The notes below the pieces were generated by a model. It was given only the letters and a program-made list of their open reading frames with translations, was not told the origin of the DNA and ran no database searches. From an uncultured Bacilli bacterium (lineage in GTDB: Bacteria > Bacillota_I > Bacilli_A > RF39 > UBA660), in assembly GCA_934162125.1 (NCBI GenBank), contig CAKPHU010000001.1:121352-185351 (forward strand): a DNA stretch of 64,000 nt, read 5' to 3'. This document shows positions 776-58,823 of this stretch, piece by piece. Every line of letters begins with the position of its first letter. Position 1 is the first letter of the stretch. The translations under genes and the position numbers were made by a program.

Positions 776-1315
776 TTATTTTAAGATAACTACCCATTTA
801 TCACCATATTTTTTTTCTTTAACACTTTTATATCTTGAAGGATAGATAATTCTGTCAAAGCTGTTGCTTTCGCAAATGATTAGGCCATCTTCATTTAAAA
901 GATTGTAGGTAGCTATTAGTTCAAGGCTTTTTTCAATGTAGTTAGTTTCATATGGAGGATCAAGAAAGATTAAATCAAACTTTAAATTGTTATTAGAAAA
1001 AGATTCTAAGGCTTTTTGATAGTCACTATTAAGGACTTTGGCATTAGAAATATTTAAGTCTTTGATATTGTCATTTATAGTTTTAACAGCTTTGGGATTT
1101 TTATCGACTAAATAGGCATATGAGGCACCATTACTTAGAGCTTCTATTCCTAAGTTACCACTACCAGAGAATAAATCTAGGATAAGACTATTACTGATAT
1201 TATTTTGAATCATGGCAAAAAGACTTTCTTTAACACGATCCATAGTTGGACGAGTTCCATCTAAAGTATAGCCTTTAAGAGTTCGTCCTTTATAGAGTCC
1301 ACTAATTATTTTCAT
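776..1315 (-). CDS. rsmD: 16S rRNA (guanine966-N2)-methyltransferase RsmD
   Basis: About 180 aa with a DPPY methyltransferase motif (LDPPYE) and an N-terminus typical of RsmD (IISGLYKGRTL). Its ATG overlaps the upstream gene's stop as ATGA. Confidence 0.8.
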   Translation of the reverse strand: MKIISGLYKGRTLKGYTLDGTRPTMDRVKESLFAMIQNNISNSLILDLFSGSGNLGIEALSNGASYAYLVDKNPKAVKTINDNIKDLNISNAKVLNSDYQKALESFSNNNLKFDLIFLDPPYETNYIEKSLELIATYNLLNEDGLIICESNSFDRIIYPSRYKSVKEKKYGDKWVVILK

Positions 1316-1596
1316 ATACGACACTTACCTTTACTATTGATCTTTTTTAGAGAATTATTTATTTCTAAAATTAAAATATTAATATCTGTTTCTTTTTCTT
1401 TAAATCTTTTGTAGAGAGGATCATTATATATTTCCTCTTTTAAACTTTCCTTTCGATTATATTTATACTTTTCAATAAGAGATAAGAGTTCCTTATCTTC
1501 CCCTATTTTTTCTTTTAATTCTTTAATTTCTTTGACATCAGCATTTTCATCTAGACTTTTTTTAAGTTCTAGGACTTTTTCTATTAATTCTTCCAT
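1312..1596 (-). CDS. YlbF/YmcA/YheA (UPF0342) family protein, a Bacillus ylbF-like regulator
   Basis: 94-aa helical protein whose pattern matches the UPF0342 family. Its position immediately upstream of rsmD mirrors B. subtilis ylbF-ylbG-ylbH. Confidence 0.45.
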   Translation of the reverse strand: MEELIEKVLELKKSLDENADVKEIKELKEKIGEDKELLSLIEKYKYNRKESLKEEIYNDPLYKRFKEKETDINILILEINNSLKKINSKGKCRI

Positions 1597-1617
1597 GATT
1601 TTATTTTAACATATTTT

Positions 1618-1839
1618 CTATTTTAATACATCTAGAAAATTAGAAACAAGAGAGATACTTTGTGATATTTTAGCGAGTCTGTCTTCGGGAGTTAGTTTGT
1701 AGACTTTTTTCATAGTCTCTTCTATTTCTTTAAGACTGGAAGGATCTCTATTTAAATATTTATATAGATGAGAATTTTCTCTTAAATATTGATATAGATT
1801 GGGATTATTTTTAATGTAGTTAATTGTGTATAGATCCAT
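1618..1839 (-). CDS. YlbE-like small protein
   Basis: 73 aa; the pattern YI..NP.L..YLRE...LYKYL.R.P resembles YlbE-like proteins (PF14003). It sits between ylbD-like and ylbF-like genes, as in Bacillus. Confidence 0.4.
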   Translation of the reverse strand: MDLYTINYIKNNPNLYQYLRENSHLYKYLNRDPSSLKEIEETMKKVYKLTPEDRLAKISQSISLVSNFLDVLK

Positions 1840-1841
1840 TA

Positions 1842-2204
1842 TTAATCCTCAAATGATTTATAGATAGGACGTGGTTCATAAGTTTCTGTTGGAGTACTTC
1901 TAGTGCCTAGTCCAATGTCTTGAAGGAGACCAATTGTTTTTTGAAGATTATTTACTCCTTGTTGAACAGAGTCTAAATCAATATTTTTGATAGTGTTATA
2001 GAGATCTTTAAAAGAAGAAAGAGAGGTAGCTTGAGAAGTTACAGCAGGAAGATTTTTTTCTAAATAGTTATTCCAGATAGTACTTTCAGCACCATATATT
2101 TCATAAAGTTCATAGAGTTTTTGCCAACTAACATTATCTTTTAAGACATTTTCCGCTAATTCAGGATGGCTTTTCGCAAATAATTTAAAACTTTCTTTAG
2201 ACAT
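1842..2204 (-). CDS. YlbD-like protein (putative spore-coat-associated family)
   Basis: 120 aa; the N-terminal FKLFAKSHPELAENV...W.K.YE and the central NLQKTIGLLQ pattern match the YlbD family. Synteny with ylbE/ylbF/rsmD supports this. Confidence 0.45.
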   Translation of the reverse strand: MSKESFKLFAKSHPELAENVLKDNVSWQKLYELYEIYGAESTIWNNYLEKNLPAVTSQATSLSSFKDLYNTIKNIDLDSVQQGVNNLQKTIGLLQDIGLGTRSTPTETYEPRPIYKSFED

Positions 2205-24703: not shown

Positions 24704-25468
24704 CTAAAATCCTAACCATTCAGTAATCATAGTTGGAGTCATTTTAGTGAAATAGATAAATAAGGCTGCAAATAGTAAAAATGGTCCAAATGGAATTACT
24801 TTTTCTTTATTTTTAAATAATAAAAGTAAAGACATTGGAAGAGCAAAAAGACTTCCTAAAAAGATGGTTAGTGTTCCAAGAAGAGGATCTAGGATAAGGC
24901 CAAAGACAAACATCATTTTAATGTCTCCGCCACCTAAACTTTCTTTTTTTAATACTTTATTACCTATTAACATTATTAAGTACATAATCGAAAATAGGAA
25001 AATACCTGTGGCAATTTTTAAAAGACAACCAACAATGCCTAAGGATAGAAGTTGTACTATTATGAAATAGACACTAAAGAAGATTAGTACTTCATCTGGT
25101 ATTATTAAGTATGTTAAGTCACTTACGACGATAATCATAAATAATGAGACAAGTCCTAAGGCAATTAGAAGTTCATAACTGAAGCCAAAACTATAGTAGC
25201 TAACTGCGAATAAGAGGCCAGTAAAGAACTCCATATAGAGTGCTAGTATGTCTATCTTGGTGTGACAATAGCGACATCTTCCTCTTTGAACAAGATAAGA
25301 TATGATAGGAATCATCTCATAGAAAGATAATTCGTGTCCACATGTATCACAGTGAGATCTAGTTGTAGTAAAGTTTTCATTTTTGGGTAGTCTTAGACCT
25401 ATTACGGTGTAGAATGAGCCTAAGTGAGCTCCTAAAATAAAAAAGATAATTAAATATAGTACTTCCAT
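24704..25468 (-). CDS. Prepilin (type IV leader) peptidase, A24 family (PilD/ComC)
   Basis: Zinc-binding CDTC...CRYC tetrad and polytopic membrane topology, with catalytic Asp motifs (VSDLTY, GGGDIKM). Confidence 0.8.
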   Translation of the reverse strand: MEVLYLIIFFILGAHLGSFYTVIGLRLPKNENFTTTRSHCDTCGHELSFYEMIPIISYLVQRGRCRYCHTKIDILALYMEFFTGLLFAVSYYSFGFSYELLIALGLVSLFMIIVVSDLTYLIIPDEVLIFFSVYFIIVQLLSLGIVGCLLKIATGIFLFSIMYLIMLIGNKVLKKESLGGGDIKMMFVFGLILDPLLGTLTIFLGSLFALPMSLLLLFKNKEKVIPFGPFLLFAALFIYFTKMTPTMITEWLGF

Positions 25469-25490
25469 AATAATTATCCTCCTTAATATT

Positions 25491-27068
25491 CTATTTAATT
25501 TGACTATAAATACTGAACATTGGTGTTACTATTGAAAGTAAGATTACAGCAACAATACCTGCTAGCATAATAATCATAAATGGTTCCATCAAACTCTTTA
25601 ATTGATCAATGATGTTTTTGTGTAATAATTGGAAGTGAGCGGCAACTTTTTCCATCATGTTACCTAATTGACCAGTATTTTCACCAGTAACAATCATTTC
25701 ATAGGCAACAATTGGAATAGCCCATTCACCTTGGAAAGCAGATGAAACAGATTCACCTTTAGCTAAGTTAGCTAGAGTTTTATTAATAATTCTTTTATAG
25801 ACTTCGTTATCAGTTATTTTAGATAGGATTTCCATACTATCAGTAATGAAAACACCATGGTTTAATAATGAAGCGAAAGTCTTAGTAAAGTTTGATATTT
25901 CTTTATAAATAATAATATTTTTAACAACTGGTACATGCATTAAAAATGTTTGAACGCCTGTACGGAAAGCTGTTGACTTCTTGAAAGCTACAGTGAATCC
26001 TCCTATTAAGCCACCAATAACTAGTAATAAGATATACCAGTAGTTTTGAATAAATTCACTGGCACCTAAAACTGCTAAGGTAATACCTGGTAATTTAGCA
26101 TCATTTTCTGAGAACATTGATGCGAATTGAGGTACTAAGTATACTAACATGAAGATTAATACGCCTACAGCTAGAGTTAAGATAACTACTGGGTAGATCA
26201 TAGCACTCTTCATTTGTTTCTTTGTCTGATCCATTGATGTATAGTACTCTGCCATATCATCTAGGATTGATGGTAAGTCACCAGTCATTTCAGAAGTCTT
26301 AACCATGTTGATTAGTAATGGTGGAAAAGCTTTGCCTTGACGAGCAAGGGCTATTGAGAAACTTTCACCACGTAATAATTCATAAACTACTTGACCAAAA
26401 ATCTTTTTATGTGCTGGTTTAGTAGTTTGTTTTGCTAAGATACGCATTGAGTCAACTAGTGGGATACCTGATTTAATATATGTTGATAATTGGGTTAGTG
26501 AGAATGATAAGTCTCCAGCTTTAAAGCTAGCTCCACCTAAATCAACATCGAATTTACTTCTTAGTTTAATTTCTAGAACCTGGTAACCTTGTGACTCTAA
26601 GTAGTTACGAACTTCATCTTCTGTTTCAGCATCAAAAGTACCTTGTTCTTTTTTATTCATCGTATTGATTATACTATAACGATATGAATTTAATTTAACA
26701 CTTCTTTTTTCACGGCCTTTATCTGGGTCTTCTTTTTTAATAGCGTCTAACACTTCTTGAGCTTGAGCTTTGATTTCTTCATTAGTAGCCTCATGTGGTT
26801 GTGCTGGGGCTGTGGCAGTTGATGCTGATACTGTTGGCTCTGGAGCTACTGGAGCTTGAGCTGCTGGCATAGCAACTGGAGCGCCTGGTATTGGAGCAGC
26901 AACTGGTGCAGGTTGTACAGTAGGAGCTACTGGTTGTTGTTGAAGCATTGGATTACTTGCTACTTGAGGAATCTCCGCCTGGGCAGTTATTGGAGCACCT
27001 GTTACATTTGGTGTTGCTAACGCAGTGTTATTAGTACTTTCTTCTTTATTTTTCTTTCCAAATATCAT
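25491..27068 (-). CDS. Type IV pilus/T2SS platform protein (GspF/PilC/ComGB family) with an N-terminal Pro/Ala/Gln-rich extension of about 100 aa
   Basis: Two T2SSF-type repeats (LARQGKAFPPLLINMVKTSEMTGDL and AFQGEWAIPIVAYEMIVTGENTGQLGNMMEKVA). The first ~100 aa are low-complexity P/A/V/Q-rich. Confidence 0.75.
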   Translation of the reverse strand: MIFGKKNKEESTNNTALATPNVTGAPITAQAEIPQVASNPMLQQQPVAPTVQPAPVAAPIPGAPVAMPAAQAPVAPEPTVSASTATAPAQPHEATNEEIKAQAQEVLDAIKKEDPDKGREKRSVKLNSYRYSIINTMNKKEQGTFDAETEDEVRNYLESQGYQVLEIKLRSKFDVDLGGASFKAGDLSFSLTQLSTYIKSGIPLVDSMRILAKQTTKPAHKKIFGQVVYELLRGESFSIALARQGKAFPPLLINMVKTSEMTGDLPSILDDMAEYYTSMDQTKKQMKSAMIYPVVILTLAVGVLIFMLVYLVPQFASMFSENDAKLPGITLAVLGASEFIQNYWYILLLVIGGLIGGFTVAFKKSTAFRTGVQTFLMHVPVVKNIIIYKEISNFTKTFASLLNHGVFITDSMEILSKITDNEVYKRIINKTLANLAKGESVSSAFQGEWAIPIVAYEMIVTGENTGQLGNMMEKVAAHFQLLHKNIIDQLKSLMEPFMIIMLAGIVAVILLSIVTPMFSIYSQIK

Positions 27069-28714: not shown

Positions 28715-29233
28715 TTACTTTTTAATAATAGTTTTTTCTGTTTCTTTTTCATTGCCAATAGAAGTAACACTACCAGTTAAAGTATTGTTTCTTCCACCTA
28801 CTGATACTGTATAAGCAAAAGTATCGCCTACTTCTTTGTGATGAACACTTTTTCCAAATGGACTTTCAATACTTGTGTATCCAGCTTTTCCTTCTAAACC
28901 GATTAAATTTTCAACTAAAGTTACTTCTTCGTCTTCATCTTCATCAGCAAATCTAACTGTAAAAGTAGTTCCAATTTCTACTGAAGTTAGTGATGGCTCA
29001 TCAATGATTTCTGTTTCTGAACTACTTAAAATTTCAATTAAACTATTTAATTCTTGATTATTAATTCTAAGTGCTGTTTCACTAATGATATCAACGTTTG
29101 CCATTGGTGTTTCATTATCAGTGGCTTGACCGTTACGACTTTCTAGATATCCATTACGTAAAGTAGCATCATTACTTTTACGACTAGTAATTGCTTCTTC
29201 TATATATTCAACCTGTTTTCTAATTAGTTGCAT
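28715..29233 (-). CDS. GreA/GreB-family protein with a GreA-like C-terminal FKBP-fold domain and a divergent N-terminal half
   Basis: The C-terminal ~80 aa align well with the GreA C-terminal domain (TVRFADEDEDEEVTLVENLIG...YTSIESPFGKSVHHKEVGDTF...SVTSI). The N-terminal ~90 aa are not a typical Gre coiled coil. Confidence 0.5.
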   Translation of the reverse strand: MQLIRKQVEYIEEAITSRKSNDATLRNGYLESRNGQATDNETPMANVDIISETALRINNQELNSLIEILSSSETEIIDEPSLTSVEIGTTFTVRFADEDEDEEVTLVENLIGLEGKAGYTSIESPFGKSVHHKEVGDTFAYTVSVGGRNNTLTGSVTSIGNEKETEKTIIKK

Positions 29234-32806: not shown

Positions 32807-32904
32807 ATTTATACCTCCTCATTTCTATAATATGATAACATATTTTTATAATTGTGAAAAGTTTTTTAGCTTTATTTTGCAAAGAAAAAGAAGAGATAAC
32901 TCTT

Positions 32905-33846
32905 CTACATCATTTCTTTATAGTAAATTGTTTTCTCAACAGCACTTCTGATTGATGATTCATTGAATGGTTTACCTAACATATCAACAATTTGATACTT
33001 GAAAGCTTTATCAATAGTTTCTTTTGAAGAATCACCAGAAATGATTGATACTGGGAACTTAGAGAACAAATTATTTTCTTTCATATACTCTAGAACAGCA
33101 AAGCCATCTACTTTTGGCATGTTAAGGTCAAGTAACATACATACGATATTATCATTTTCTCTATTAGCTGCTAAGATATCGATAGCTTCTTCACCATCTT
33201 TAGCTGTTCCTACACCATAAGTGTCACTGAAGATACGTTTAACAAAGTTTCTAATGATATTAGAATCATCGACAACTAAGATTGTTTTCTTATCATATAC
33301 TTCACCAGTTGGAATGTTTGCTGGTAAAGGGGCAGCAGCTGGAGCTTGAGCTTCTACAGCTGGAGCTACTGGGGCAGCTGGTGTCTCAGGTATAATTGGA
33401 GCAACAGCAGGTGCTGGTGCAGCTGGAGTTGCTTCTGCTACTGGAGCAACAGGAATATTTTGGAAAGCTGGAACTGATCCTGGATGAAGATATTCATTAA
33501 CAACATCAACTGCACGATCAACTTCATCTTTTAATTCTTGATAATGATTATAGATGTAATAGAAGTCTCCTCCTTTACATTTTTGTTCATGAAGACCAGC
33601 TAGTTCAGCTAAATGTGTAAAACCAAAATATGTTGCATCACTAGTTAGAGAGTGAGCATAAATAGCATAGTTTGATAAGTCTTTACTATTTTTATATACT
33701 TCTAGTTTAGCTAGTTTATCTTTAGCACTAACTACTAATTCTCCTACTGTTTGATTATATGTATTTATGTCTCCAAAGATTTCTAAACTCTTGTTGACAT
33801 CTACTCCGTTTTTAATTAAAAAATTTGTATCATTCATTATATTCAC
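32905..33846 (-). CDS. Hybrid HPt (histidine phosphotransfer) and CheY-like receiver protein joined by a Pro/Ala-rich linker
   Basis: N-terminal HPt-like motif (YAIYAHSLTSDATYFGFTHLAELAGLHE). The C-terminal REC domain has DD, the phospho-acceptor D in MLLDLNMP and the conserved K in DMLGKP. A PAVAP-rich linker lies between them. Confidence 0.55.
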   Translation of the reverse strand: MNIMNDTNFLIKNGVDVNKSLEIFGDINTYNQTVGELVVSAKDKLAKLEVYKNSKDLSNYAIYAHSLTSDATYFGFTHLAELAGLHEQKCKGGDFYYIYNHYQELKDEVDRAVDVVNEYLHPGSVPAFQNIPVAPVAEATPAAPAPAVAPIIPETPAAPVAPAVEAQAPAAAPLPANIPTGEVYDKKTILVVDDSNIIRNFVKRIFSDTYGVGTAKDGEEAIDILAANRENDNIVCMLLDLNMPKVDGFAVLEYMKENNLFSKFPVSIISGDSSKETIDKAFKYQIVDMLGKPFNESSIRSAVEKTIYYKEMM

Positions 33847-33946
33847 CTACTCTTGTAATCTAATTTGATTATAGCATAATTTTTATAAATGTAAAATGTT
33901 TTTTCTAAGAAATGTCAAGAAAAAAACATCTAATTTAAGATGTTTT

Positions 33947-35281: not shown

Positions 35282-36502
35282 TTATTTTTTTACTTTTTGT
35301 TTCATGATACCATGAGTTGTAGCTCTACGTTCCATTTTAGAAAGTAATGTTTTAGTAGAACTAATACTTTCTGGTGTAATTTCACCAGTTAGACTTAACT
35401 CTAGGGTATCATAAATAAGGGCCTCATAATTAGTTAAATTTTCTCTACCAAAAGCACGTTCTAGATGATCATCACGATTAGTAATAGCACATCTATCTAA
35501 GAAGTGACTGTATTTGGCATCAAAATCATTATATAAAGGCTCTAGTAATGGTCTATAAGCAGAGCAAGACTCTCTTTCAAAACTTGGAAATAAAGGTCCA
35601 AGTGCTTCTAAATCTTTAATAGAACGGGCTTCTGTACGTAATTCATTGATATAACGATATTGAAAAGAATGATTTCTACTAGCAAAAGCTACACCATTGG
35701 GACCTGATTCAATAGCATGTCTATTTTCATGATAGAAAATACCATTAATATCTTTGTCAATATCCGCAATTAATGGAACATAAACATAGGTATAAGTTTT
35801 GCCATCAACAATTAAACTCTTACAGCAAGCTAGTTGATTTGGTTTATATAGTGTATTTACTAAATCAGAATTTGATACTTCTAGGCCAGTTGAAGCATAA
35901 AGTTCTCTTCTAATACGTTGAGCCCAAGGATTATCTGCTACCATAGTATATTTTTGGGCTCCTTTTATATAAGATATTTCGTTAATAATATAATCAAGCT
36001 TATCTTGATCTGATGGCAAGATAATACCATGTTCTTCATAAGTCGCAATTATTTTTTCACGAAAATCATAGTAAGATTCTCTAGACTCTATTGAGACACT
36101 TTCATCTTGATATTCACTAGCCTCGGCACTAGATAAAGAAGCTATTCTAATACGAGAAATCTTCTCTTTTTCTTCATATATTTCTGTATATGATTTAGTT
36201 ATTTTACATGTTTCATAGAGAAAATCCACTATTTCATTTTCCATTCTAGCAATACTTTCATCACGTAAACGACAGTAGATAGCACTTTCTTCTAATAAAT
36301 TACTTGGAACTGGTTCATGATGTTTTTGTAAGAAAGCAATAGTTTGCCATGGTTTAGATTCAAAAATATAACCTGTTTTCTTACTACGATGAACAATATA
36401 TGGTTTATACCAGTAACCATATTCATTTACATAATGTTTTAATAGTTCTTCTCTTTTGGCTTTCAACACTTCTTTAGCATGAATAATTTCGGAAATATCC
36501 AT
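35282..36502 (-). CDS. Hypothetical 406-aa protein occupying the rpmA-obg interval, where Bacillus has spo0B
   Basis: Strong RBS (AAAGGGGGGA) placed after the rpmA terminator. No recognised motifs and no resemblance to Spo0B by eye. Confidence 0.5.
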   Translation of the reverse strand: MDISEIIHAKEVLKAKREELLKHYVNEYGYWYKPYIVHRSKKTGYIFESKPWQTIAFLQKHHEPVPSNLLEESAIYCRLRDESIARMENEIVDFLYETCKITKSYTEIYEEKEKISRIRIASLSSAEASEYQDESVSIESRESYYDFREKIIATYEEHGIILPSDQDKLDYIINEISYIKGAQKYTMVADNPWAQRIRRELYASTGLEVSNSDLVNTLYKPNQLACCKSLIVDGKTYTYVYVPLIADIDKDINGIFYHENRHAIESGPNGVAFASRNHSFQYRYINELRTEARSIKDLEALGPLFPSFERESCSAYRPLLEPLYNDFDAKYSHFLDRCAITNRDDHLERAFGRENLTNYEALIYDTLELSLTGEITPESISSTKTLLSKMERRATTHGIMKQKVKK

Positions 36503-37614: not shown

Positions 37615-39393
37615 CTATACTAGCTCAGTCTTTAATAGTTCTTTATTTCCTGTAGAAACTGATTCTTTTGGAGTAGCATTTAAAGCTTCTAAGTATTCTG
37701 GAAGTTTAGCATCCGGAACAATAAAAGTTGGATTTGTTAAGACTTCAGATAGAGACTCACTATCTACTTCTTGTCCAGTGGCATTTAAAAGAGCTACTCG
37801 GTCCCAACGTTTAGCGGGAATGTTTAATAGATTGATGTCTTCTTCTAGATCTTTGGCATGACCTAGATTAGAAACTTTTTCTATTAATTCATTAAGACTA
37901 CTATTTGTTAAGAAACCTACATTAGTATTGCGATCAATAGCAGATAATAAATCTCTTGATTTTAGAGAGTCAATAGAAGCTTTGATAGTAGTACTATCAC
38001 CTAGTAATGTCTTTGGCGAAGAGTTTAAATATAAAGGATTTAGTCCGGCAGAAACAAAGGCATGAACATTTTTAAAGACATTGATGTAGGCACTACTTTC
38101 TGAATCGAAAACTATTGGATAAGTTGTTAGAAAACTACTATCAATAATTTTACGTTCATATAAATTTTCAAGATGACTAATAGAGTCACTTGTCGCTTTA
38201 GAAAGTATTTCTAGTATCATGTCAGAATCAGTTATTTGCATTTTTCTTAAACTGGTAAGAGAACTATTTATTTCTGATGGAGTGCTTGTTAGTGTTAATA
38301 AATAAGCAAAAGGAACTTCGATACCATGTTTAGCAAAGATACGTTCATAATCATGTTTTTTATCTTGTTCAAGAGCAGTATAAGAAGCTTCTAATGGCTC
38401 ATAGTGACGCATGTTAAGACCATAGATATATTCTAGGACTTGTTTCTTAATCTTTTCATCTTTAGCTTTAGAAACTAGAGATTCATATGAAATACATTCT
38501 CTATCTTCATCTAGGACTCTAAGATCTGCGATTAGTCCATTGTAGCTATTGATAGTCTTAGTTTTTTGACGAACTCTAGTAACATATTTTTGATTTAATG
38601 ATTGGGTTTTATTATTGATACTATCGAGAAAAGCTTTGATGTCTTTTAAATATTCAAACTTAAGTAAAGTTTCTTTAACAACTTTTCTAGCAGTACTATC
38701 AGCTTTCTTTTTTTGTTCAGGTGTCAGAAATTGTTCACTAAGAATTTCGTCCACTGCTTCCTCTGATTGTCTTTGACAGTCATCATAATATTCTTTATAA
38801 GCATGCATCTTGCTGACAAAAGCAGCAGTGCTACCTATAATATCAGAATTATTTTTAATCTCTTCTAGATCTGTTATAAGTCCTTTTTCATCAGCTTCAA
38901 GCATATGTTCTTTAATACTTATTAATTGATATAGGCAAACTAGAAAATTATAAGAATAAGATGGAGCAACGTCTAGAACATTTCCTAAACCATATGCCAT
39001 TGTTATTCTAGCATCAAGTAAAGATAAGTAAGAACGATTTTCGTCTTCTGTTTTATTTTCAAGATCAACATTAACTAAGATATCTTCATTATCTAATACA
39101 ATACCAGCCAGAGCTGTCATAACATCGCGAATTTTATTAGCTGGTATTTGTTCAAATACAGGTGTTACTCTTAAAATAGCATCTTGAACTAATCCTTCGT
39201 CTAAGTTGGTATGATACCATAAATAGATAATGCAAGCACCAGTTATATCTACATCATAGAGGCTTTCATAACTAAAGTATGGATTGTGTTTAAAATATTC
39301 AAGAGCAAACTCAACAATACTATTATCATATTCAATACTTTCTAATCTAGCAATTTCTTCTTCTATTCGGGAAATTAAAAGTTCTTTAGTCAT
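37615..39393 (-). CDS. Hypothetical 592-aa protein, second gene of a two-gene unit with the 318-aa protein
   Basis: Overlaps the upstream gene by 8 nt. No NTPase or other recognisable motifs. Confidence 0.5.
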   Translation of the reverse strand: MTKELLISRIEEEIARLESIEYDNSIVEFALEYFKHNPYFSYESLYDVDITGACIIYLWYHTNLDEGLVQDAILRVTPVFEQIPANKIRDVMTALAGIVLDNEDILVNVDLENKTEDENRSYLSLLDARITMAYGLGNVLDVAPSYSYNFLVCLYQLISIKEHMLEADEKGLITDLEEIKNNSDIIGSTAAFVSKMHAYKEYYDDCQRQSEEAVDEILSEQFLTPEQKKKADSTARKVVKETLLKFEYLKDIKAFLDSINNKTQSLNQKYVTRVRQKTKTINSYNGLIADLRVLDEDRECISYESLVSKAKDEKIKKQVLEYIYGLNMRHYEPLEASYTALEQDKKHDYERIFAKHGIEVPFAYLLTLTSTPSEINSSLTSLRKMQITDSDMILEILSKATSDSISHLENLYERKIIDSSFLTTYPIVFDSESSAYINVFKNVHAFVSAGLNPLYLNSSPKTLLGDSTTIKASIDSLKSRDLLSAIDRNTNVGFLTNSSLNELIEKVSNLGHAKDLEEDINLLNIPAKRWDRVALLNATGQEVDSESLSEVLTNPTFIVPDAKLPEYLEALNATPKESVSTGNKELLKTELV

Positions 39394-40342
39394 TTACTTT
39401 CACCTTTTCTTTCTTGCTTGATTTGTCTTTTTGACCTAGCATTCTAAAAAGTTCTTGTTCATAATCATCTTGTATTTTTAAGAAATCTTCATTTTTTATT
39501 TGTTCTTTAAGGGTAGCTTCTACTTTACGATACTGACTACATCTTAAATTTAGTAGTTCAGAATGTTCTTTATTTCTAGTTGTTTTCTTAGTAAAGGCAC
39601 TGACAATAGCATAAGTATCTTCACCTAAACGATCAAAAACAACACGAACTTTGAAGTCTTTTACTTCTCCGAAGCCTTGTGTAAAGACATTATTAGAACT
39701 TAGACGGTTAAAGTTCTTGAATGTACCGTTTTTAATAGATTCAAATAGACCTAAGAATTTATCATAATAAGTACTATCAATATGACTTAGTTCTTCTAAG
39801 GCACGTGGATAACCAGTTGAAGTTGGAACGAAGATTAAATGGTTAGTGCTTGATATTTCAGTTAAGTCTAATTCTTCTTCGGACATCAGTTCTCTAAGAA
39901 GAGAAATTTGTTGGTTGTTAGTGGCAATGTCTTCGGCAAAAACAGCTAATTCTTCACTGTCTTCAGCAAAGTTTCTAATGGTAGCGTTATTTTTTAATAG
40001 TTCGATAATTAAACGATTAATTACTAATTCATATTTAGCTGAAGACTTGTCTGGTAAAAAGACTAAAAGATCTTCTTTAGTAGCTGGTTTTGGTAAATGG
40101 GCTAATTCTAATAAATAGATGGAAATATCATCTTCAAAATCCTGGTCGGTACGATCAATTTCAGGTGTTTCTTCTAATTCAGGTTTTCTCATATAGTCAG
40201 TTGGTTCGTAATGAGCTTCTTGAAGAGAAGAAGAGGCAACTATTTCACGACGCATTTCTTTAGCAATTCTGATATTTTGTGATAAGACTTTTTGCAGTGC
40301 TTCATTATTTAGAGAAGCTGGTTCAACTTTAATAAATTCCAT
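39386..40342 (-). CDS. Hypothetical 318-aa acidic protein whose C-terminal segment resembles RelE/ParE-superfamily (Gp49/HigB-like) toxin domains
   Basis: C-terminal ...VKDFKVRVVFDRLGEDTYAIVSAFTKKTTRNKEH... fits the Gp49/RelE-like pattern (...yRvlYf..gd.ivLLhgF.KKtqk...). Strong RBS (AAAAGGGGGA) and its own consensus promoter. Confidence 0.45.
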   Translation of the reverse strand: MEFIKVEPASLNNEALQKVLSQNIRIAKEMRREIVASSSLQEAHYEPTDYMRKPELEETPEIDRTDQDFEDDISIYLLELAHLPKPATKEDLLVFLPDKSSAKYELVINRLIIELLKNNATIRNFAEDSEELAVFAEDIATNNQQISLLRELMSEEELDLTEISSTNHLIFVPTSTGYPRALEELSHIDSTYYDKFLGLFESIKNGTFKNFNRLSSNNVFTQGFGEVKDFKVRVVFDRLGEDTYAIVSAFTKKTTRNKEHSELLNLRCSQYRKVEATLKEQIKNEDFLKIQDDYEQELFRMLGQKDKSSKKEKVKVND

Positions 40343-40457: not shown

Positions 40458-42500
40458 TTAATCTCTTTTAACGTATGCTTCACCTTTAACCGGTTCATTT
40501 GATACAGTTTCAGTTACCATAGTTTCTAACTCATTTGTTTGAGCTTGTACTGGTGTGGCAGCTGGACTATAAAGAGTATCTACTGGATCAGTATATTGAA
40601 CTGCTGGCATAGTAGTTGGTGCAGGTGCTGGAGTTGAAACTGGTTCATAAGCCGGAGCTTCTATTGGAGCTGGTGCAACTGGAGTAACTGGTGTCATTTG
40701 TTCTTCTTCATAAGTATCAAACTTAATAGCAGGAATTGTTTCTGGTTCTGGCATTACCACAGCATTAAAGTTTACAGCTGGTGCTGATGCCATAGTAGGC
40801 ATTTGATATTCATCTTTCTCTTCTACTATTGGAGTTGTAACTGCTGGTGTTTCTTCAGTTAAAGACACTGGTATGTTAGCTGACTCTTTTGGTTGGAATA
40901 CTTCGTTCACAGCTTCACGTACTTCATTAACTTTTCCTTTTTCGTAAACTGTTTGAGCAGAAGTTTCAATTAGTCTCATGGCATCAGCATAAGTACTTGG
41001 AGCATAAAAATCAACATTTTCTTTTTCTTTGCCAGTGTAGAATCTAACATCTTTATATTCTTCTCCAGCATAAGATACGATATTTTCTCTTAACTGTTCT
41101 AAAACTTCTTGACGCTGTAGTTTCTCAGCTTGTAGTTGGCTTCTAGCTTTTGCGACATTCTCTTTTAGTTCAGATATAGCCTCTTCACTATGAGCTATAT
41201 CTCTTCCAACGGCACCTAAGCTTTCTTGCAGGCTTTCAGCACTACTAAAGTCTAAACCATTTTTTATACCTAGAAGAGAAGTATATTTGTTTTTATACCA
41301 GTTTATGATTTCACAACAAATCTCGTCACTAAATCTTTCTATTTGCATATTATAAATTGCAAGTTCAGATTTAACTCTAGAAGTTTTAATAATTTTTTTA
41401 GCAAGTTTATCACGACGTTCTGTAAGATCTTTTAGATGTTCATATGCAAAAGGTGTTTGAATCTTTGACTCGTGTTGTCTTATTTCTTCTAAAGTTGGAA
41501 CTCTTTTATTTCCGTTGTCATATCCAATATATTCATGGCCAACTAAGAAAGATATTTTTTCTGGAGTTAATTCTTCATATAATAAAGTGTTTTTAGCTTC
41601 TTTAAATCTTCTTTCATAATCTCTTACAACCATTTCAAGAATACTTCTATCTTCAATAGTGTGAATAAATGCATCTTTCTGTTTGTCAGTGTGTAAGGCA
41701 ACTAGATTTCTAAGATCTTCAGGTAACTGATATGGGTTTGATACAAATAATGTAGTTCGAACTGGGGACTGCAACATAAGATCTCTTTGAGCACCATAAT
41801 TAGCTACCATTCTAGCCATTTTATCGGCTTTTTCTGGATCGTTTGCGAATTGAGCTAACATCTCCGCACCTTTTGAAACATCTATACCATTAGTTAAAAT
41901 CATTTCATAATAAGCTGGGTTTCCAGTCTTTTCGGCAAGAGATCGTCTTATTTCTTCTGGAGTACGAGTTGCGATAGCATCAATTTCAAATTGAAGACTT
42001 TCTCTATCTCTAGCTATTGCTTGGAAAACATAGCCTGTTTTCTCATCATACCTATTTAATTCAGATTGGAAGTAATTTCTATCACGTAATGCTTCTCTCT
42101 TAGCTTCAGGAGTTTCGGCTGTTACACTTTTAGTAATACTTTCTCTTAATCTAGCTTCTAGAACAGTTTTAAGTTCACGAGCCTCACGCTCACGAGCAGT
42201 AATTTCATCAATACGAGGTTGGAATTCAGCTATTTTTTCTTGATTATAGGCTCCTAATTCTTCAGGTGTCATAGCTTTAATTCTAGCATAGGCAGGTAGT
42301 CCTACCATGTTATTTAGGCTATTCCATCTATCTCTAAGAAGACCTCTTTCTCTTGTAGCTTCTGCAATTATTCTTACATCTTCTTCAGTTTTCTGACGTT
42401 TGCTTTCATGTTCAGAAATTCTGTCATCTAAAGCTGTGACCTGGTCTTGAAGTTCAGCCATTTCACGTTCAAACATTGTTAAGAATTCTTCTTTAGTCAT
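40458..42500 (-). CDS. Hypothetical 680-aa protein with an Arg/Glu-rich coiled-coil N-terminal half and a Pro/Ala/Thr/Val-rich disordered C-terminal tail
   Basis: No enzymatic motifs. Composition is seen directly. Translationally coupled to an upstream 47-aa micro-ORF. Confidence 0.5.
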   Translation of the reverse strand: MTKEEFLTMFEREMAELQDQVTALDDRISEHESKRQKTEEDVRIIAEATRERGLLRDRWNSLNNMVGLPAYARIKAMTPEELGAYNQEKIAEFQPRIDEITAREREARELKTVLEARLRESITKSVTAETPEAKREALRDRNYFQSELNRYDEKTGYVFQAIARDRESLQFEIDAIATRTPEEIRRSLAEKTGNPAYYEMILTNGIDVSKGAEMLAQFANDPEKADKMARMVANYGAQRDLMLQSPVRTTLFVSNPYQLPEDLRNLVALHTDKQKDAFIHTIEDRSILEMVVRDYERRFKEAKNTLLYEELTPEKISFLVGHEYIGYDNGNKRVPTLEEIRQHESKIQTPFAYEHLKDLTERRDKLAKKIIKTSRVKSELAIYNMQIERFSDEICCEIINWYKNKYTSLLGIKNGLDFSSAESLQESLGAVGRDIAHSEEAISELKENVAKARSQLQAEKLQRQEVLEQLRENIVSYAGEEYKDVRFYTGKEKENVDFYAPSTYADAMRLIETSAQTVYEKGKVNEVREAVNEVFQPKESANIPVSLTEETPAVTTPIVEEKDEYQMPTMASAPAVNFNAVVMPEPETIPAIKFDTYEEEQMTPVTPVAPAPIEAPAYEPVSTPAPAPTTMPAVQYTDPVDTLYSPAATPVQAQTNELETMVTETVSNEPVKGEAYVKRD

Positions 42501-57554: not shown

Positions 57555-58172
57555 TTAATATTCTTCTTTATTTACTAAATATGAAACTACTACTAGTTGT
57601 CTATCATTAGTATCTTTCTTACAAGTTATTAGTGTTAACGTATTCTGATTTAAGTCTCTACTTATTTCAACAGAGCCATCTTTTTTAACATCATATATCT
57701 CATCAATGTGGTAAGTATACTTTATTCCTTCATGATAGATATAGACAATGTCATTTAGTTCTAGACGATGAAATTGATTGAAGTAAGAAATACGAGCAGT
57801 ACCATTATGGGCTGCTAAAACGACATTTCCATTTACTTCTTGAGGTAGAGAACTTTCTTTTAGAATAGCAACATTTTTCTCAATTGTATTTTGATCTGAT
57901 TCTAATGAATAAACTCCTCTTTTTAAACCAATTTTAGGTATTTCTAAGATGAGTAGAAACTCCTCTTCCTTATTGTCAGAAGGTGGAGTTTCAATATTTT
58001 CCTTTTCTTCCTCTTTAACTTTAGAAGTATTTTCTAAATAATCATTTACCTTATTATTGTCTTCTGTTGTATGCTCTTTTTCAAGAAAAATAGGAACAAC
58101 TCCAATCATTATTCCTATTATCACAACAATTATTCCAAATGCTAGAGTTTTAGCTTTGCTTTTTTCTTGCAC
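57555..58172 (-). CDS. Sortase-family transpeptidase
   Basis: N-terminal membrane anchor, catalytic His region (LAAHNG) and the TLxTC Cys motif (LTLITCKKD). GTG start overlapping the upstream gene's end. Confidence 0.7.
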   Translation of the reverse strand: MQEKSKAKTLAFGIIVVIIGIMIGVVPIFLEKEHTTEDNNKVNDYLENTSKVKEEEKENIETPPSDNKEEEFLLILEIPKIGLKRGVYSLESDQNTIEKNVAILKESSLPQEVNGNVVLAAHNGTARISYFNQFHRLELNDIVYIYHEGIKYTYHIDEIYDVKKDGSVEISRDLNQNTLTLITCKKDTNDRQLVVVSYLVNKEEY

Positions 58173-58794
58173 TTATAATTATTCCTAATCCTATTAAAAC
58201 TATGATAATTGAAAATACAATTGTATAAGGAAAACTATTACTCATAGTATCTGGAGTTTCAACAATTTCAACAGGTGGTTTGCCATTATCATATTGAGCA
58301 TAGAATGACCAATCAATATATGATGATTCATTAAACTCTGTATTACCATAACTTTCAGATAATTTTGTTTCTACAACCATTTTAGAAGTCTTTGATGGTT
58401 CAAAATCTCCTAGTAGAATTGCTTGTTGAAGATCAATTCCTTGATTAGTATAGTCAAGGCCAGTAGCCTTTCCTTCATAGATAACTTTATCATCTAATTT
58501 AATTTTCATTATGATATTTTCTAGCAACTCATCTGCTTCAGCACTTTGACTTTTAGGTACAACTTTAAAAAATAAAGTATATTTTATTTTTGTTCCATTC
58601 TCAATAGTTAATTCATCTGTATAACTACTACCAGGAACCATATCCATATGCTTCATGAATACATCTTCATCTATTAATTTGCTTTCATAATATAGACGAT
58701 CATTTTCTTCTGTAAAATATAATCTGTTTTCTTTAGCTTGTACAGATATAGTACTAAGTACAAAAACAAATATTAATAATATGATTTTTTTCAT
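58150..58794 (-). CDS. Secreted protein with a cell-wall-sorting-signal-like C-terminus (motif region VETPDTMSNSFPY, hydrophobic helix, ARKKQS tail) but no canonical LPXTG; a candidate sortase substrate
   Basis: Sec signal peptide (ISVQA|KE) and a tripartite C-terminus, read directly. Immediately upstream of and overlapping the sortase gene. Confidence 0.5.
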   Translation of the reverse strand: MKKIILLIFVFVLSTISVQAKENRLYFTEENDRLYYESKLIDEDVFMKHMDMVPGSSYTDELTIENGTKIKYTLFFKVVPKSQSAEADELLENIIMKIKLDDKVIYEGKATGLDYTNQGIDLQQAILLGDFEPSKTSKMVVETKLSESYGNTEFNESSYIDWSFYAQYDNGKPPVEIVETPDTMSNSFPYTIVFSIIIVLIGLGIIISARKKQS

Positions 58795-58823
58795 AGCAAA
58801 CCTCCTAGTCCTTTCTTTGTTAA

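What the first reader, a model, noticed from the sequence alone, without database searches (positions are those of the whole stretch)
32905..33846. Orphan HPt-receiver hybrid beside obg, at the locus of Bacillus spo0B
This single protein has an N-terminal HPt-like domain (AHSLTSDATYFGFTHLAELAGLHE), a Pro/Ala-rich linker and a C-terminal CheY-type receiver. There is no histidine kinase or output domain, and none is encoded nearby. In Bacillus the phosphorelay phosphotransferase Spo0B is co-operonic with obg. Here a phosphotransfer-type protein of a different fold (HPt) sits immediately downstream of obg, while the spo0B slot itself (35282..36502) holds an unrelated 406-aa unknown. A window containing a ylbD-like coat gene and a SpoVB-like flippase suggests a sporulation-capable lineage, so this may be an alternative phosphorelay intermediate.
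Basis: partly seen in the sequence, partly recalled or inferred. Interest (0 to 1): 0.5.

Follow-up and report, generated by a model that had tools for sequence, protein, structure and literature searches.

The report
Orphaned HPt–receiver phosphorelay protein beside obg
This gene in an uncultured human-gut bacterium encodes a genuine two-part signalling protein (a histidine-phosphotransfer domain fused to a receiver) that has lost its neighbouring sensor kinase here, whereas in relatives the same protein sits in an operon with a membrane hybrid kinase, sometimes in the Bacillus spo0B slot or directly upstream of the sporulation master regulator spo0A.

Summary
The ORF encodes an N-terminal HPt four-helix bundle, a disordered Pro/Ala linker and a catalytically complete receiver. 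The true start is the ATG at 33837 (310 aa). The HPt call is sub-threshold in Pfam for this protein but is established by family-level HMMs, a PDB profile search and AlphaFold plus Foldseek. No histidine kinase lies within about 80 kb. The gene has its own promoter, ribosome-binding site and terminator.

The protein belongs to a large family confined to uncultured gut Bacilli. In more distant members the gene lies about 33 bp downstream of a 7-TM hybrid kinase that lacks HPt, usually preceded by a FadD-like ligase. In other relatives the same HPt is fused to the kinase and the receiver stands alone. So this is the H2–D2 half of an ArcB/LuxQ-LuxU-style phosphorelay, and its orphan state here is derived.

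Linkage to rplU-ysxB-rpmA/obg/yebC recurs across the family. In some lineages the kinase–HPt-REC cassette lies between rpmA and obg, directly upstream of spo0A, or near spoIVB. A sporulation role is therefore plausible in some relatives. Nothing in this window shows that this organism sporulates.

The parts
32905..33837 (-). CDS of the HPt-linker-receiver protein (310 aa from ATG 33837; stop codon 32905-32907). Residue numbers in this report follow the 313-aa GTG model.
   Evidence: homologs and independent gene calls start at this ATG.
33487..33837 (-). HPt domain (residues 4-120): helical bundle, helices at about 7-12, 17-24, 27-53, 57-74, 77-91 and 95-120.
33652..33654 (-). Codon CAC for His65 (His62 from the ATG), the predicted phospho-accepting histidine. 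Local motif is H-S-L-T-S-D-A-T-Y-F-G.
   Evidence: His is invariant in close relatives and present in 36 of 42 diverse members. It aligns with the phospho-His of CheA-P1 and LuxU. Thr at H+3 and H+7 is specific to this species-level clade.
33292..33486 (-). Pro/Ala-rich flexible linker (residues 121-185).
   Evidence: pLDDT below 50 over residues 128-179. Length and sequence vary among homologs, from about 12 to about 190 residues.
32908..33291 (-). CheY-type receiver domain (residues 186-313).
   Evidence: Pfam Response_reg E=2.5e-21; predicted (beta-alpha)5 fold; 54% identical to the stand-alone receiver of L003.
33127..33129 (-). Codon GAC for Asp240, the predicted phospho-accepting aspartate (motif LLDLNMP).
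   Evidence: Invariant in all 42 diverse members, together with D193, D194 and K292.
33868..33895 (-). Sigma-70-type promoter candidate: TTTACA, 16-nt spacer, TG-extended TATAAT (11 of 12 matches).
33844..33848 (-). Shine-Dalgarno sequence AGGTG, 6 nt upstream of ATG 33837. It contains the GTG that the ORF finder used as the start.
   Evidence: read directly from the sequence.
33918..33946 (-). AT-rich hairpin plus T-run directly after the obg stop codon (AAAAAACATCT-TAAATT-AGATGTTTTTTT). Probable obg terminator that separates obg from the target.
   Evidence: read by eye. The automatic scan missed it because the stem has few G-C pairs.
32880..32906 (-). Terminator-like stem-loop (AGAAGAG-TTAT-CTCTTCT) followed by a T-run, overlapping the stop codon of the target.

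Best explanation
The gene encodes the 'H2-D2' half of a four-step His-Asp-His-Asp phosphorelay. The N-terminal monomeric HPt bundle would accept a phosphoryl group on His65 from the receiver (D1) of a hybrid histidine kinase. It would pass the group to Asp240 of its own C-terminal receiver (D2), in cis or in trans through the flexible linker, and possibly also to other response regulators. D2 has no output domain, so it would act through protein-protein contacts or as a competing phosphate sink.

Shown: both domains and their catalytic residues; membership of a large family in uncultured gut Bacilli; a 7-TM HisKA-HATPase-REC kinase without HPt encoded immediately upstream in many relatives; and alternative splits of the same modules (kinase-REC-HPt plus a stand-alone receiver).

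Inferred: the direction of phosphoryl flow; that this genome still encodes a donor kinase elsewhere; and the nature of the output.

In this genome the gene is a stand-alone transcription unit. Its position between obg and yebC is inherited from an ancestral cassette location in the rpmA-obg-yebC block.
For: - Domains and residues.
- Family size and MAG-only distribution ('Bacilli bacterium', 'Mycoplasmatota', 'Tenericutes', 'Erysipelotrichaceae', Ca. Alloscybalousia).
- Hybrid kinase (HisKA 6.8e-18, HATPase_c 7.6e-26, REC 1e-22, no HPt) directly upstream in 17 of 30 distant lineages, median gap 33 bp. Independent gene calls agree in L097 and L098.
- Rosetta-stone evidence: L003 has 7TM-HisKA-HATPase-REC-HPt (742 aa), then 3 nt later a 124-aa receiver 54% identical to the target's receiver.
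- The top 120 relatives of that kinase all end in this family's HPt: 73 H1-REC-HPt and 45 H1-REC-REC-HPt.
- LuxU, the HPt partner of the HPt-less hybrid kinase LuxQ, is among the few PDB sequence hits and shares the H-x-L-K-S motif.
- Ser at H+4 is compatible with phosphotransfer (PMC6341664).
- Own promoter, RBS and terminators.
Against: - No kinase lies within about 80 kb of the gene. Whether the genome encodes any hybrid kinase is unknown.
- This species-level clade has replaced the family's Lys at H+3, and the Lys/Arg at H+7, with Thr. H+3 helps form the channel to the receiver Asp in Ypd1.
- In the kinase-less clade the HPt domain diverges about 1.6 times faster than the receiver, against 0.95 times in kinase-linked lineages. 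This could mean decay or re-targeting of the HPt half.
- The Pfam Hpt score of this protein is below the gathering threshold.
- There is no experimental data for any family member.
Confidence: 0.6

Rival explanations
1. Sporulation phosphorelay substitute. The kinase/HPt-REC module replaces Spo0F and Spo0B and delivers phosphate from the HPt His to Spo0A, in this organism as well as in its relatives.
For: - The cassette or gene lies between rpmA and obg, the marker neighbourhood used to find spo0B (PMC6136694), in L041, L047-52, L055/56 and L065.
- L041 also has an M23-like plus M50 protease pair upstream of rplU, like spoIVFA/FB in Bacillus.
- The order FadD-hyHK-HPtREC-spo0A, with a 143-bp terminator-free spacer, occurs in L098/L089, L063 and L092. 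Spo0A scores 265 bits on TIGR02875, above the 200 cutoff.
- SpoIVB lies 2-4 genes downstream in one abundant lineage. SpoIIIAH, GerE and Germane lie downstream in L014.
- Erysipelotrichia-related spore-formers lack Spo0F, Spo0B and KinA-E, and their route to Spo0A~P is unknown.
Against: - No Spo0A, SpoIVB or other verified sporulation gene lies in the window or about 16 kb of flanks.
- Spo0A or SpoIVB adjacency occurs in only 4 of 43 distant lineages, and the Spo0A cases may trace to one ancestral event.
- Many loci are beside unrelated genes such as murG-murB-ftsQ, truB, or a giant surface protein.
- L096/97 carry the cassette but show ftsA-ftsZ followed by topA rather than spoIIGA-sigE-sigG.
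- No 0A boxes occur upstream of any cassette.
- The rpmA-obg-yebC linkage could simply be inherited synteny.
- These orders mix sporulating and non-sporulating species.
Confidence: 0.2
2. Relic or re-purposed protein. After the cognate kinase was lost from the locus (or the genome), the HPt half became non-catalytic, serving as a docking or regulatory domain. Only the receiver remains functional, phosphorylated by another kinase or by acetyl phosphate.
For: - Thr replaces Lys at H+3 and H+7 only in this clade.
- HPt diverges about 1.6 times faster than the receiver in kinase-less lineages.
- Six of 42 diverse members have lost the His yet keep the receiver Asp. A His-less HPt with a live receiver is therefore a state this family does reach.
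- No kinase lies within about 80 kb.
Against: - His65, Ser at H+4, Gly75 and the bundle core are retained. The model is very confident (pLDDT 94.7).
- The sister lineages without an adjacent kinase (about 59% identity, P0012 type) keep the full H-S-L-K-S-D-A-K motif. This argues that a trans-encoded kinase is the norm.
- The identical protein is maintained in over 100 independent human-gut assemblies, with intact expression signals.
Confidence: 0.15
3. CheY/PilG-like regulator of the nearby type IV pilus or competence machinery (pilC and pilD lie about 6 kb downstream).
For: PilC (T2SSF, 4.6e-53) and the prepilin peptidase lie at 24704-27068. They are syntenic with the target in close relatives.
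Against: - Several housekeeping operons lie in between (yebC, ruvAB, queA, tgt).
- No che or chp genes are present.
- The linkage disappears in distant family members, where the conserved partner is the hybrid kinase.
Confidence: 0.03

Closest known systems
LuxQ-LuxU-LuxO (Vibrio) and similar hybrid-kinase plus separate-HPt relays (Sln1-Ypd1-Ssk1; P. aeruginosa hybrid kinases-HptB)
   Same: The membrane hybrid kinase has HisKA-HATPase-REC but no HPt, and a separately encoded monomeric HPt bundle takes the phosphate on. LuxU is a PDB sequence hit with a near-identical H-x-L-K-S motif. HptB is the top structural match.
   Different: Here the HPt is covalently fused, N-terminal, to the next receiver (H2-D2 in one protein). 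That receiver has no output domain. In this genome no kinase is adjacent.
Unorthodox tripartite kinases ArcB, BarA, TorS and EvgS (H1-D1-H2 in one protein, D2 on a separate response regulator)
   Same: The same four modules and presumably the same order of transfer. The kinase next to the family scores best against TorS, BarA, LuxQ and ArcB models. Relatives (L003, P0403-P0522) really are H1-D1-H2 proteins carrying this family's HPt.
   Different: In the target's family the split falls between D1 and H2 instead of between H2 and D2. The sensor part is a 5-7-TM domain, and a FadD-like ligase gene is usually co-located.
Bacillus Spo0F-Spo0B-Spo0A sporulation phosphorelay
   Same: His-Asp-His-Asp logic. 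The chromosomal association with rplU-ysxB-rpmA and obg defines the spo0B neighbourhood. Some relatives place the cassette next to spo0A.
   Different: Spo0B is a dimeric DHp-like helical hairpin with an alpha/beta domain, not a monomeric HPt bundle, and the target gave no Spo0B-type hit. Spo0F is free-standing. In this window the gene lies after obg and is transcribed separately. No link to Spo0A is shown for this organism.
CckA-ChpT-CtrA/CpdR (Caulobacter); comparison from general knowledge, not tested here
   Same: A hybrid kinase feeds a phosphotransferase that serves both a master DNA-binding regulator and a single-domain receiver. This is the layout proposed for the spo0A-adjacent loci.
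   Different: ChpT is kinase-like (DHp/CA-like), not an HPt bundle. The single-domain receiver CpdR is a separate protein.

Membership tests
HPt domain (Pfam PF01627; monomeric four-helix-bundle histidine phosphotransfer) | Score at or above the Pfam gathering threshold | tested here: not met
   21.9 bits against a cutoff of 24.6 for the window protein. However, 35 of 42 diverse family members match, best E=1.7e-8.
HPt domain (Pfam PF01627; monomeric four-helix-bundle histidine phosphotransfer) | Four-helix-bundle fold superposable on solved HPt structures | tested here: met
   AlphaFold model pLDDT 94.7, pTM 0.87. Foldseek top ~20 hits are all HPt proteins (7c1i, 3myf, 3iqt, 8pbw, 1yvi, 1a0b, Ypd1), TM 0.73-0.79, probability 1.00.
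HPt domain (Pfam PF01627; monomeric four-helix-bundle histidine phosphotransfer) | Conserved phospho-accepting His in the middle of a bundle helix | tested here: met
   His65 lies in helix 57-74. It is invariant in close relatives and present in 36 of 42 diverse members. It aligns with the phospho-His of CheA-P1 and LuxU.
HPt domain (Pfam PF01627; monomeric four-helix-bundle histidine phosphotransfer) | Small residue (Gly, Ser or Ala) at H+4 | tested here: met
   Ser69. Ser occurs in about 10% of HPts and Ypd1 G68S is functional (PMC6341664).
HPt domain (Pfam PF01627; monomeric four-helix-bundle histidine phosphotransfer) | Conserved Lys at H+3 | tested here: not met
   Thr68 in the window protein and its relatives at 79% identity or more. 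Lys is present in 38 of 42 family members.
HPt domain (Pfam PF01627; monomeric four-helix-bundle histidine phosphotransfer) | Reversible phosphotransfer between the His and receiver Asp residues | not testable with these tools
   Requires biochemistry.
Response-regulator receiver (Pfam PF00072) | Profile match above threshold and a (beta-alpha)5 fold | tested here: met
   76.4 bits against a cutoff of 30.2. Predicted alternating beta/alpha elements over residues 188-312.
Response-regulator receiver (Pfam PF00072) | Catalytic quintet: two acidic residues, phospho-Asp, Thr/Ser and Lys | tested here: met
   D193, D194, D240, S270 and K292. D193, D194, D240 and K292 are invariant across 42 diverse members; S270 is invariant in close relatives.
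Spo0B phosphotransferase | Spo0B-type sequence or fold (dimeric DHp-like hairpin plus alpha/beta domain) | tested here: not met
   Only Hpt and receiver families match. The fold is a monomeric HPt bundle.
Spo0B phosphotransferase | Gene located between rpmA and obg | tested here: not met
   In the window the gene lies downstream of obg. The feature is met by relatives L041, L047-52, L055/56 and L065.
Spo0B phosphotransferase | Transfers phosphate from a Spo0F-type receiver to Spo0A | not testable with these tools
   Only adjacency to spo0A in L063, L089, L092 and L098 is available.
Spo0F | Free-standing single receiver of about 120 aa | tested here: not met
   The receiver is fused to HPt. A free-standing ortholog exists in L003.
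Hybrid-kinase multistep phosphorelay (LuxQ/LuxU or ArcB type) | A cognate hybrid kinase (H1-D1) encoded with the HPt gene | tested here: not met
   None lies in the window or about 16 kb of flanks. The feature is met in 17 of 30 distant lineages where the upstream neighbour is visible, median gap 33 bp.
Hybrid-kinase multistep phosphorelay (LuxQ/LuxU or ArcB type) | The same modules found fused in other genomes (Rosetta-stone link between kinase, HPt and receiver) | tested here: met
   L003 has H1-D1-H2 plus a free D2. All 120 kinase relatives carry this HPt at the C-terminus.
CheA-P1 / chemotaxis system | HPt followed by CheA P2-P5 domains, or che genes nearby | tested here: not met
   No such domains or genes are present in the window or in any of the related loci.

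The most novel reading that the evidence does not exclude
In the uncultured RF39/Erysipelotrichales-like gut Bacilli, which lack Spo0F, Spo0B and the Kin kinases, Spo0A is activated through a third architecture. A 7-TM hybrid kinase, possibly sensing lipid or membrane status given the linked FadD- and PlsC-like genes, phosphorylates an HPt-receiver protein that passes phosphate to Spo0A. The attached receiver acts as a sink or second output. This module occupies the chromosomal slot that holds spo0B in Bacillus, or sits directly upstream of spo0A. The window's gene would be the surviving HPt-receiver component in a lineage that has dispersed or lost the kinase.
Probability: 0.2. Interest if true: 0.8.

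Novelty: new variant of a known kind. Interest (0 to 1): 0.5.

Why it matters
How Spo0A becomes phosphorylated is known for Bacillus (the Kin-Spo0F-Spo0B relay) and for some Clostridia (direct orphan kinases). It is explicitly unknown for Erysipelotrichia-related spore-formers and the uncultured RF39, RFN20 and ML615J-28 orders that are common in animal guts.

This family offers a concrete, testable candidate. It is a hybrid kinase plus HPt-receiver cassette that recurs in the spo0B neighbourhood and beside spo0A. Earlier neighbourhood screens would have filtered it out because they required candidates with no Pfam domains.

Even without a sporulation link, the family shows how one phosphorelay can be cut at different module boundaries (H1-D1|H2-D2, H1-D1-H2|D2, H1-D1-D1'-H2). 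It also shows how a relay component becomes an orphan, monocistronic gene during genome streamlining in a prevalent human-gut bacterium.

Tried and rejected
1. An alignment of 42 diverse members was too divergent for the metagenome scan. A 13-member alignment worked.
2. The genome-contig scan used a single protein and returned only three true loci.
3. Organism names: the listing of cluster members gave none. Only MAG labels and Ca. Alloscybalousia were recovered.
4. Spo0B-like candidates among the ~160-aa proteins next to obg: there are three unrelated families (HAD-like, an unknown, a lipoprotein), and none is Spo0B-like by inspection.
5. The 406-aa protein in the spo0B slot has no Pfam, NCBIfam or PDB match. 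Its only homolog found is at 24% identity in L027. It is one of at least three unrelated insertions in that slot, so I rejected it as a Spo0B analog.
6. Spo0A-box enrichment upstream of the cassettes or the window gene: none in 6.3 kb. This is uninformative at the background rate.
7. Walking outward from the window to find a kinase or sporulation genes: two look-ups failed on inexact gene models. Two succeeded but showed only housekeeping and surface genes.
8. Supplementary tables of PMC10868615 did not list spo0F or spo0B.
9. The full-length AlphaFold model (pTM 0.47) gives no reliable inter-domain geometry. I did not use it to argue cis versus trans transfer.
10. I considered a chemotaxis (CheA-P1) reading because CheA-P1 is the best PDB sequence hit. 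I rejected it because no che genes or P2-P5 domains are present.
Full report
**The object.** The minus-strand ORF 32905..33846 exists as described. Its GTG 'start' lies inside an AGGTG Shine-Dalgarno sequence 6 nt upstream of an ATG at 33837. Homologs begin at that Met. The 310-aa product from the ATG was called independently in 116 blocks of public assemblies, which are human-gut metagenomes including Hadza samples, on contigs up to 514 kb and always with the same gene order. Upstream there is an AT-rich hairpin plus T-run right after the obg stop codon. This is followed by a near-consensus extended -10 promoter (TTTACA-16-TG-TATAAT, 11 of 12 matches). A stem-loop plus T-run overlaps the target's stop codon. 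The gene therefore looks monocistronic and is not co-transcribed with obg.

**Domains.** The receiver is unambiguous: Pfam E=2.5e-21, and D193/D194, D240, S270 and K292 are conserved. The HPt assignment needed more work. Pfam Hpt scores 21.9 bits, below the 24.6 cutoff. Four further lines of evidence establish it:
- 35 of 42 diverse family members hit Hpt, best E=1.7e-8.
- A profile of the N-terminal domain finds only HPt structures in the PDB (CheA-P1, LuxU, a fungal HPt), with the conserved His aligned to their phospho-His.
- The AlphaFold model of residues 4-125 is very confident (pLDDT 94.7, pTM 0.87).
- Foldseek matches that model to HptB, Shewanella and BarA HPt domains, fungal and plant HPts, ArcB and Ypd1 at TM 0.73-0.79, about 2 A rmsd, probability 1.00.

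The linker (residues ~121-185) is disordered and varies from about 12 to about 190 residues among homologs. The family motif is H-[SA]-[LIM]-K-S-[DE]-x-[KR]-Y-[FL]-G. Ser at H+4 occurs in about 10% of HPts and is functional in Ypd1 (PMC6341664). The window protein and its relatives at 79% identity or more are unusual in having Thr at H+3 and H+7.

**The family and its contexts.** More than 1300 close homologs and about 80 cluster representatives at E<1e-30 exist. Essentially all come from gut metagenomes or MAGs labelled Bacilli, Mycoplasmatota, Tenericutes, Erysipelotrichaceae or Ca. Alloscybalousia. I fetched 95 loci, called and clustered their ORFs, and annotated the recurrent clusters.

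Two regimes appear:
- **Window-like clade** (47.5% identity or more; 19 lineages). The order is rplU-ysxB-rpmA-[variable slot]-obg-(Exo_endo_phos)-(232-aa unknown)-HPtREC-(110-aa unknown, opposite strand)-yebC-ruvAB-queA-tgt. No kinase is adjacent (0 of 13 lineages where the upstream neighbour is visible). The window has the most streamlined version: obg | HPtREC | yebC.
- **More distant members** (43 lineages). A 7-TM HisKA-HATPase-REC hybrid kinase without HPt lies immediately upstream in 17 of 30 lineages where the upstream neighbour is visible. The median gap is 33 bp. The kinase is usually preceded by a FadD-like AMP-ligase, and sometimes the kinase is duplicated with a PlsC-like acyltransferase in between. 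Independent gene calls with precomputed Pfam hits confirm this in L097 and L098.

**Rosetta-stone evidence.** In L003 (an Erysipelotrichaceae MAG) one 742-aa protein is 7TM-HisKA-HATPase-REC-HPt, carrying this family's HPt. Three nucleotides after its stop codon comes a 124-aa stand-alone receiver that is 54% identical to the target's receiver. All 120 best relatives of that kinase end in this HPt: 73 are H1-REC-HPt and 45 are H1-REC-REC-HPt. The same four modules are therefore cut at different boundaries. This ties the HPt to the hybrid kinase and, by analogy with ArcB/BarA-type systems, identifies the receiver as the HPt's downstream partner.

**The obg / spo0B question.** Davidson et al. 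used L21, L27 and ObgE as the marker neighbourhood for spo0B, and they required candidates with no Pfam domains (PMC6136694). An HPt-REC gene would have been excluded by that filter. In this family the linkage to that block is recurrent:
- The cassette lies between rpmA and obg in L055/56, L041 and L047-52.
- The gene lies directly after rpmA in L065.
- It lies between obg and yebC in L037/38, L096/97 and the window clade.
- L041 also has an M23-like plus M50 protease pair upstream of rplU, as with spoIVFA/FB in Bacillus (the Bacillus gene order is from general knowledge).

Separately, other relatives sit beside sporulation genes:
- In L063, L089/L098 and L092 the gene is directly upstream of spo0A (TIGR02875, 265 bits against a cutoff of 200). 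The spacer is 143 bp, has no terminator and carries a perfect 0A box.
- In one abundant lineage SpoIVB lies a few genes downstream.
- In L014 SpoIIIAH, GerE and Germane follow.

The literature confirms that Erysipelotrichia-related spore-formers lack Spo0F, Spo0B and KinA-E. It also shows that RF39, RFN20 and ML615J-28 mix sporulating and non-sporulating species.

**Limits.** For this organism nothing demonstrates sporulation. There is no spo0A, spoIVB or kinase in the window or in about 16 kb of extra flank. The 'SpoVB-like' flippase is below the equivalog cutoff. YlbD belongs to a ylbD-ylbE-ylbF cluster. The spo0A adjacency is confined to a few, possibly related, lineages. Many loci have unrelated neighbours. 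No 0A boxes precede the cassettes. In the kinase-less clade the HPt half diverges about 1.6 times faster than the receiver, against 0.95 times in kinase-linked lineages. This is compatible with re-targeting or partial decay of the HPt function. The rpmA-obg slot is a variable spot holding unrelated insertions, including the window's 406-aa HENRH-motif protein.

**Verdict.** The protein is the H2-D2 half of a hybrid-kinase phosphorelay, and it has become an orphan, self-transcribed gene in this streamlined genome (confidence 0.6). It gains real, if circumstantial, support at family level (0.2 for this organism), and it defines a testable hypothesis for a third route to Spo0A~P. The system is a new variant of a known kind, and I score interest at 0.5.

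Noticed in passing
window 35282-36502 (-): A 406-aa protein between rpmA and obg has no Pfam, NCBIfam or PDB match. It carries a conserved HENRH (HExxH-type) motif shared with a 24%-identical homolog in the same slot of L027. The rpmA-obg slot is a variable spot: empty in some relatives, and filled by at least three unrelated 300-430-aa unknowns in others.
   Followed up: partly
window 37615-39393 and 39386-40342 (-): An overlapping pair of unknown proteins (592 and 318 aa, no family hits) lies just upstream of rplU. Weakly similar pairs (25-40% identity) sit at the same position in relatives, so this is a fast-evolving conserved gene pair of unknown function.
   Followed up: no
window 40458-42500 (-): A 680-aa ORF has no Pfam hit at E<=1e-5. 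The gene at the equivalent position in relatives (673 aa) is a DEAD_2/Helicase_C_2 (DinG-like) helicase, so the window copy may be strongly diverged.
   Followed up: no
window 57555-62637 (-), continuing beyond the window end (L104): A surface or pilus-like cluster. It comprises a sortase, four small unknown ORFs (one with a faint signal-peptidase S26 hit), a 692-aa repeat protein (InlB-B/DUF11/SHIRT) and, just outside the window, a 1157-aa VWA protein. The sortase argues against an RFN20 or ML615J-28 origin, because those orders are reported to lack sortases.
   Followed up: partly
window 24704-27068 (-): PilC-like (T2SSF) and prepilin-peptidase genes follow tgt and a YqfQ-like gene, conserved in close relatives. 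This is type IV pilus or competence pseudopilus machinery in a reduced-genome gut bacterium.
   Followed up: no
window 28715-29233 (-): A 172-aa protein with only a GreA/GreB C-terminal domain is inserted between queA and tgt. It is present in some relatives (L016, L022) and absent in others (L007, L009).
   Followed up: no
window 1312-2204 (-) and L103: ylbD, ylbE and ylbF-like genes (Com_YlbF, faint hit) sit next to rsmD, as in Bacillus. YlbF/RicF is linked to phosphorelay control in B. subtilis (from the literature listing), but I did not examine this here.
   Followed up: no
L098 10120-10262: The 143-bp spacer between the HPt-REC gene and spo0A has no terminator. It contains a perfect Spo0A-box complement (TTCGACA) plus several TTGACA/ATCGAC-like repeats, consistent with an autoregulated spo0A promoter. 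Perfect boxes are rare in these loci (0.04 per kb).
   Followed up: partly
L012 174-12627: The most divergent family member examined (about 34% identity) lies after a 3073-aa protein and a 176-aa unknown, and before an S26/S24-like signal peptidase and a DUF5305 gene. This context is unrelated to obg or to sporulation genes.
   Followed up: no
L014 789-2105 (P0135) and P0136, P0143, P0145: Some family members are 400-440 aa because the inter-domain linker expands to about 190 residues of Pro/Gln/Ala-rich repeats. Six of 42 diverse members have lost the HPt His while keeping the receiver Asp (pseudo-HPt forms).
   Followed up: partly
L074, L079, L081, L082, L086: In one abundant human-gut lineage the hybrid kinase is duplicated, with a PlsC-like acyltransferase between the copies, and a FadD-like ligase precedes them. 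This hints that the sensed signal is related to lipids or fatty acids.
   Followed up: no
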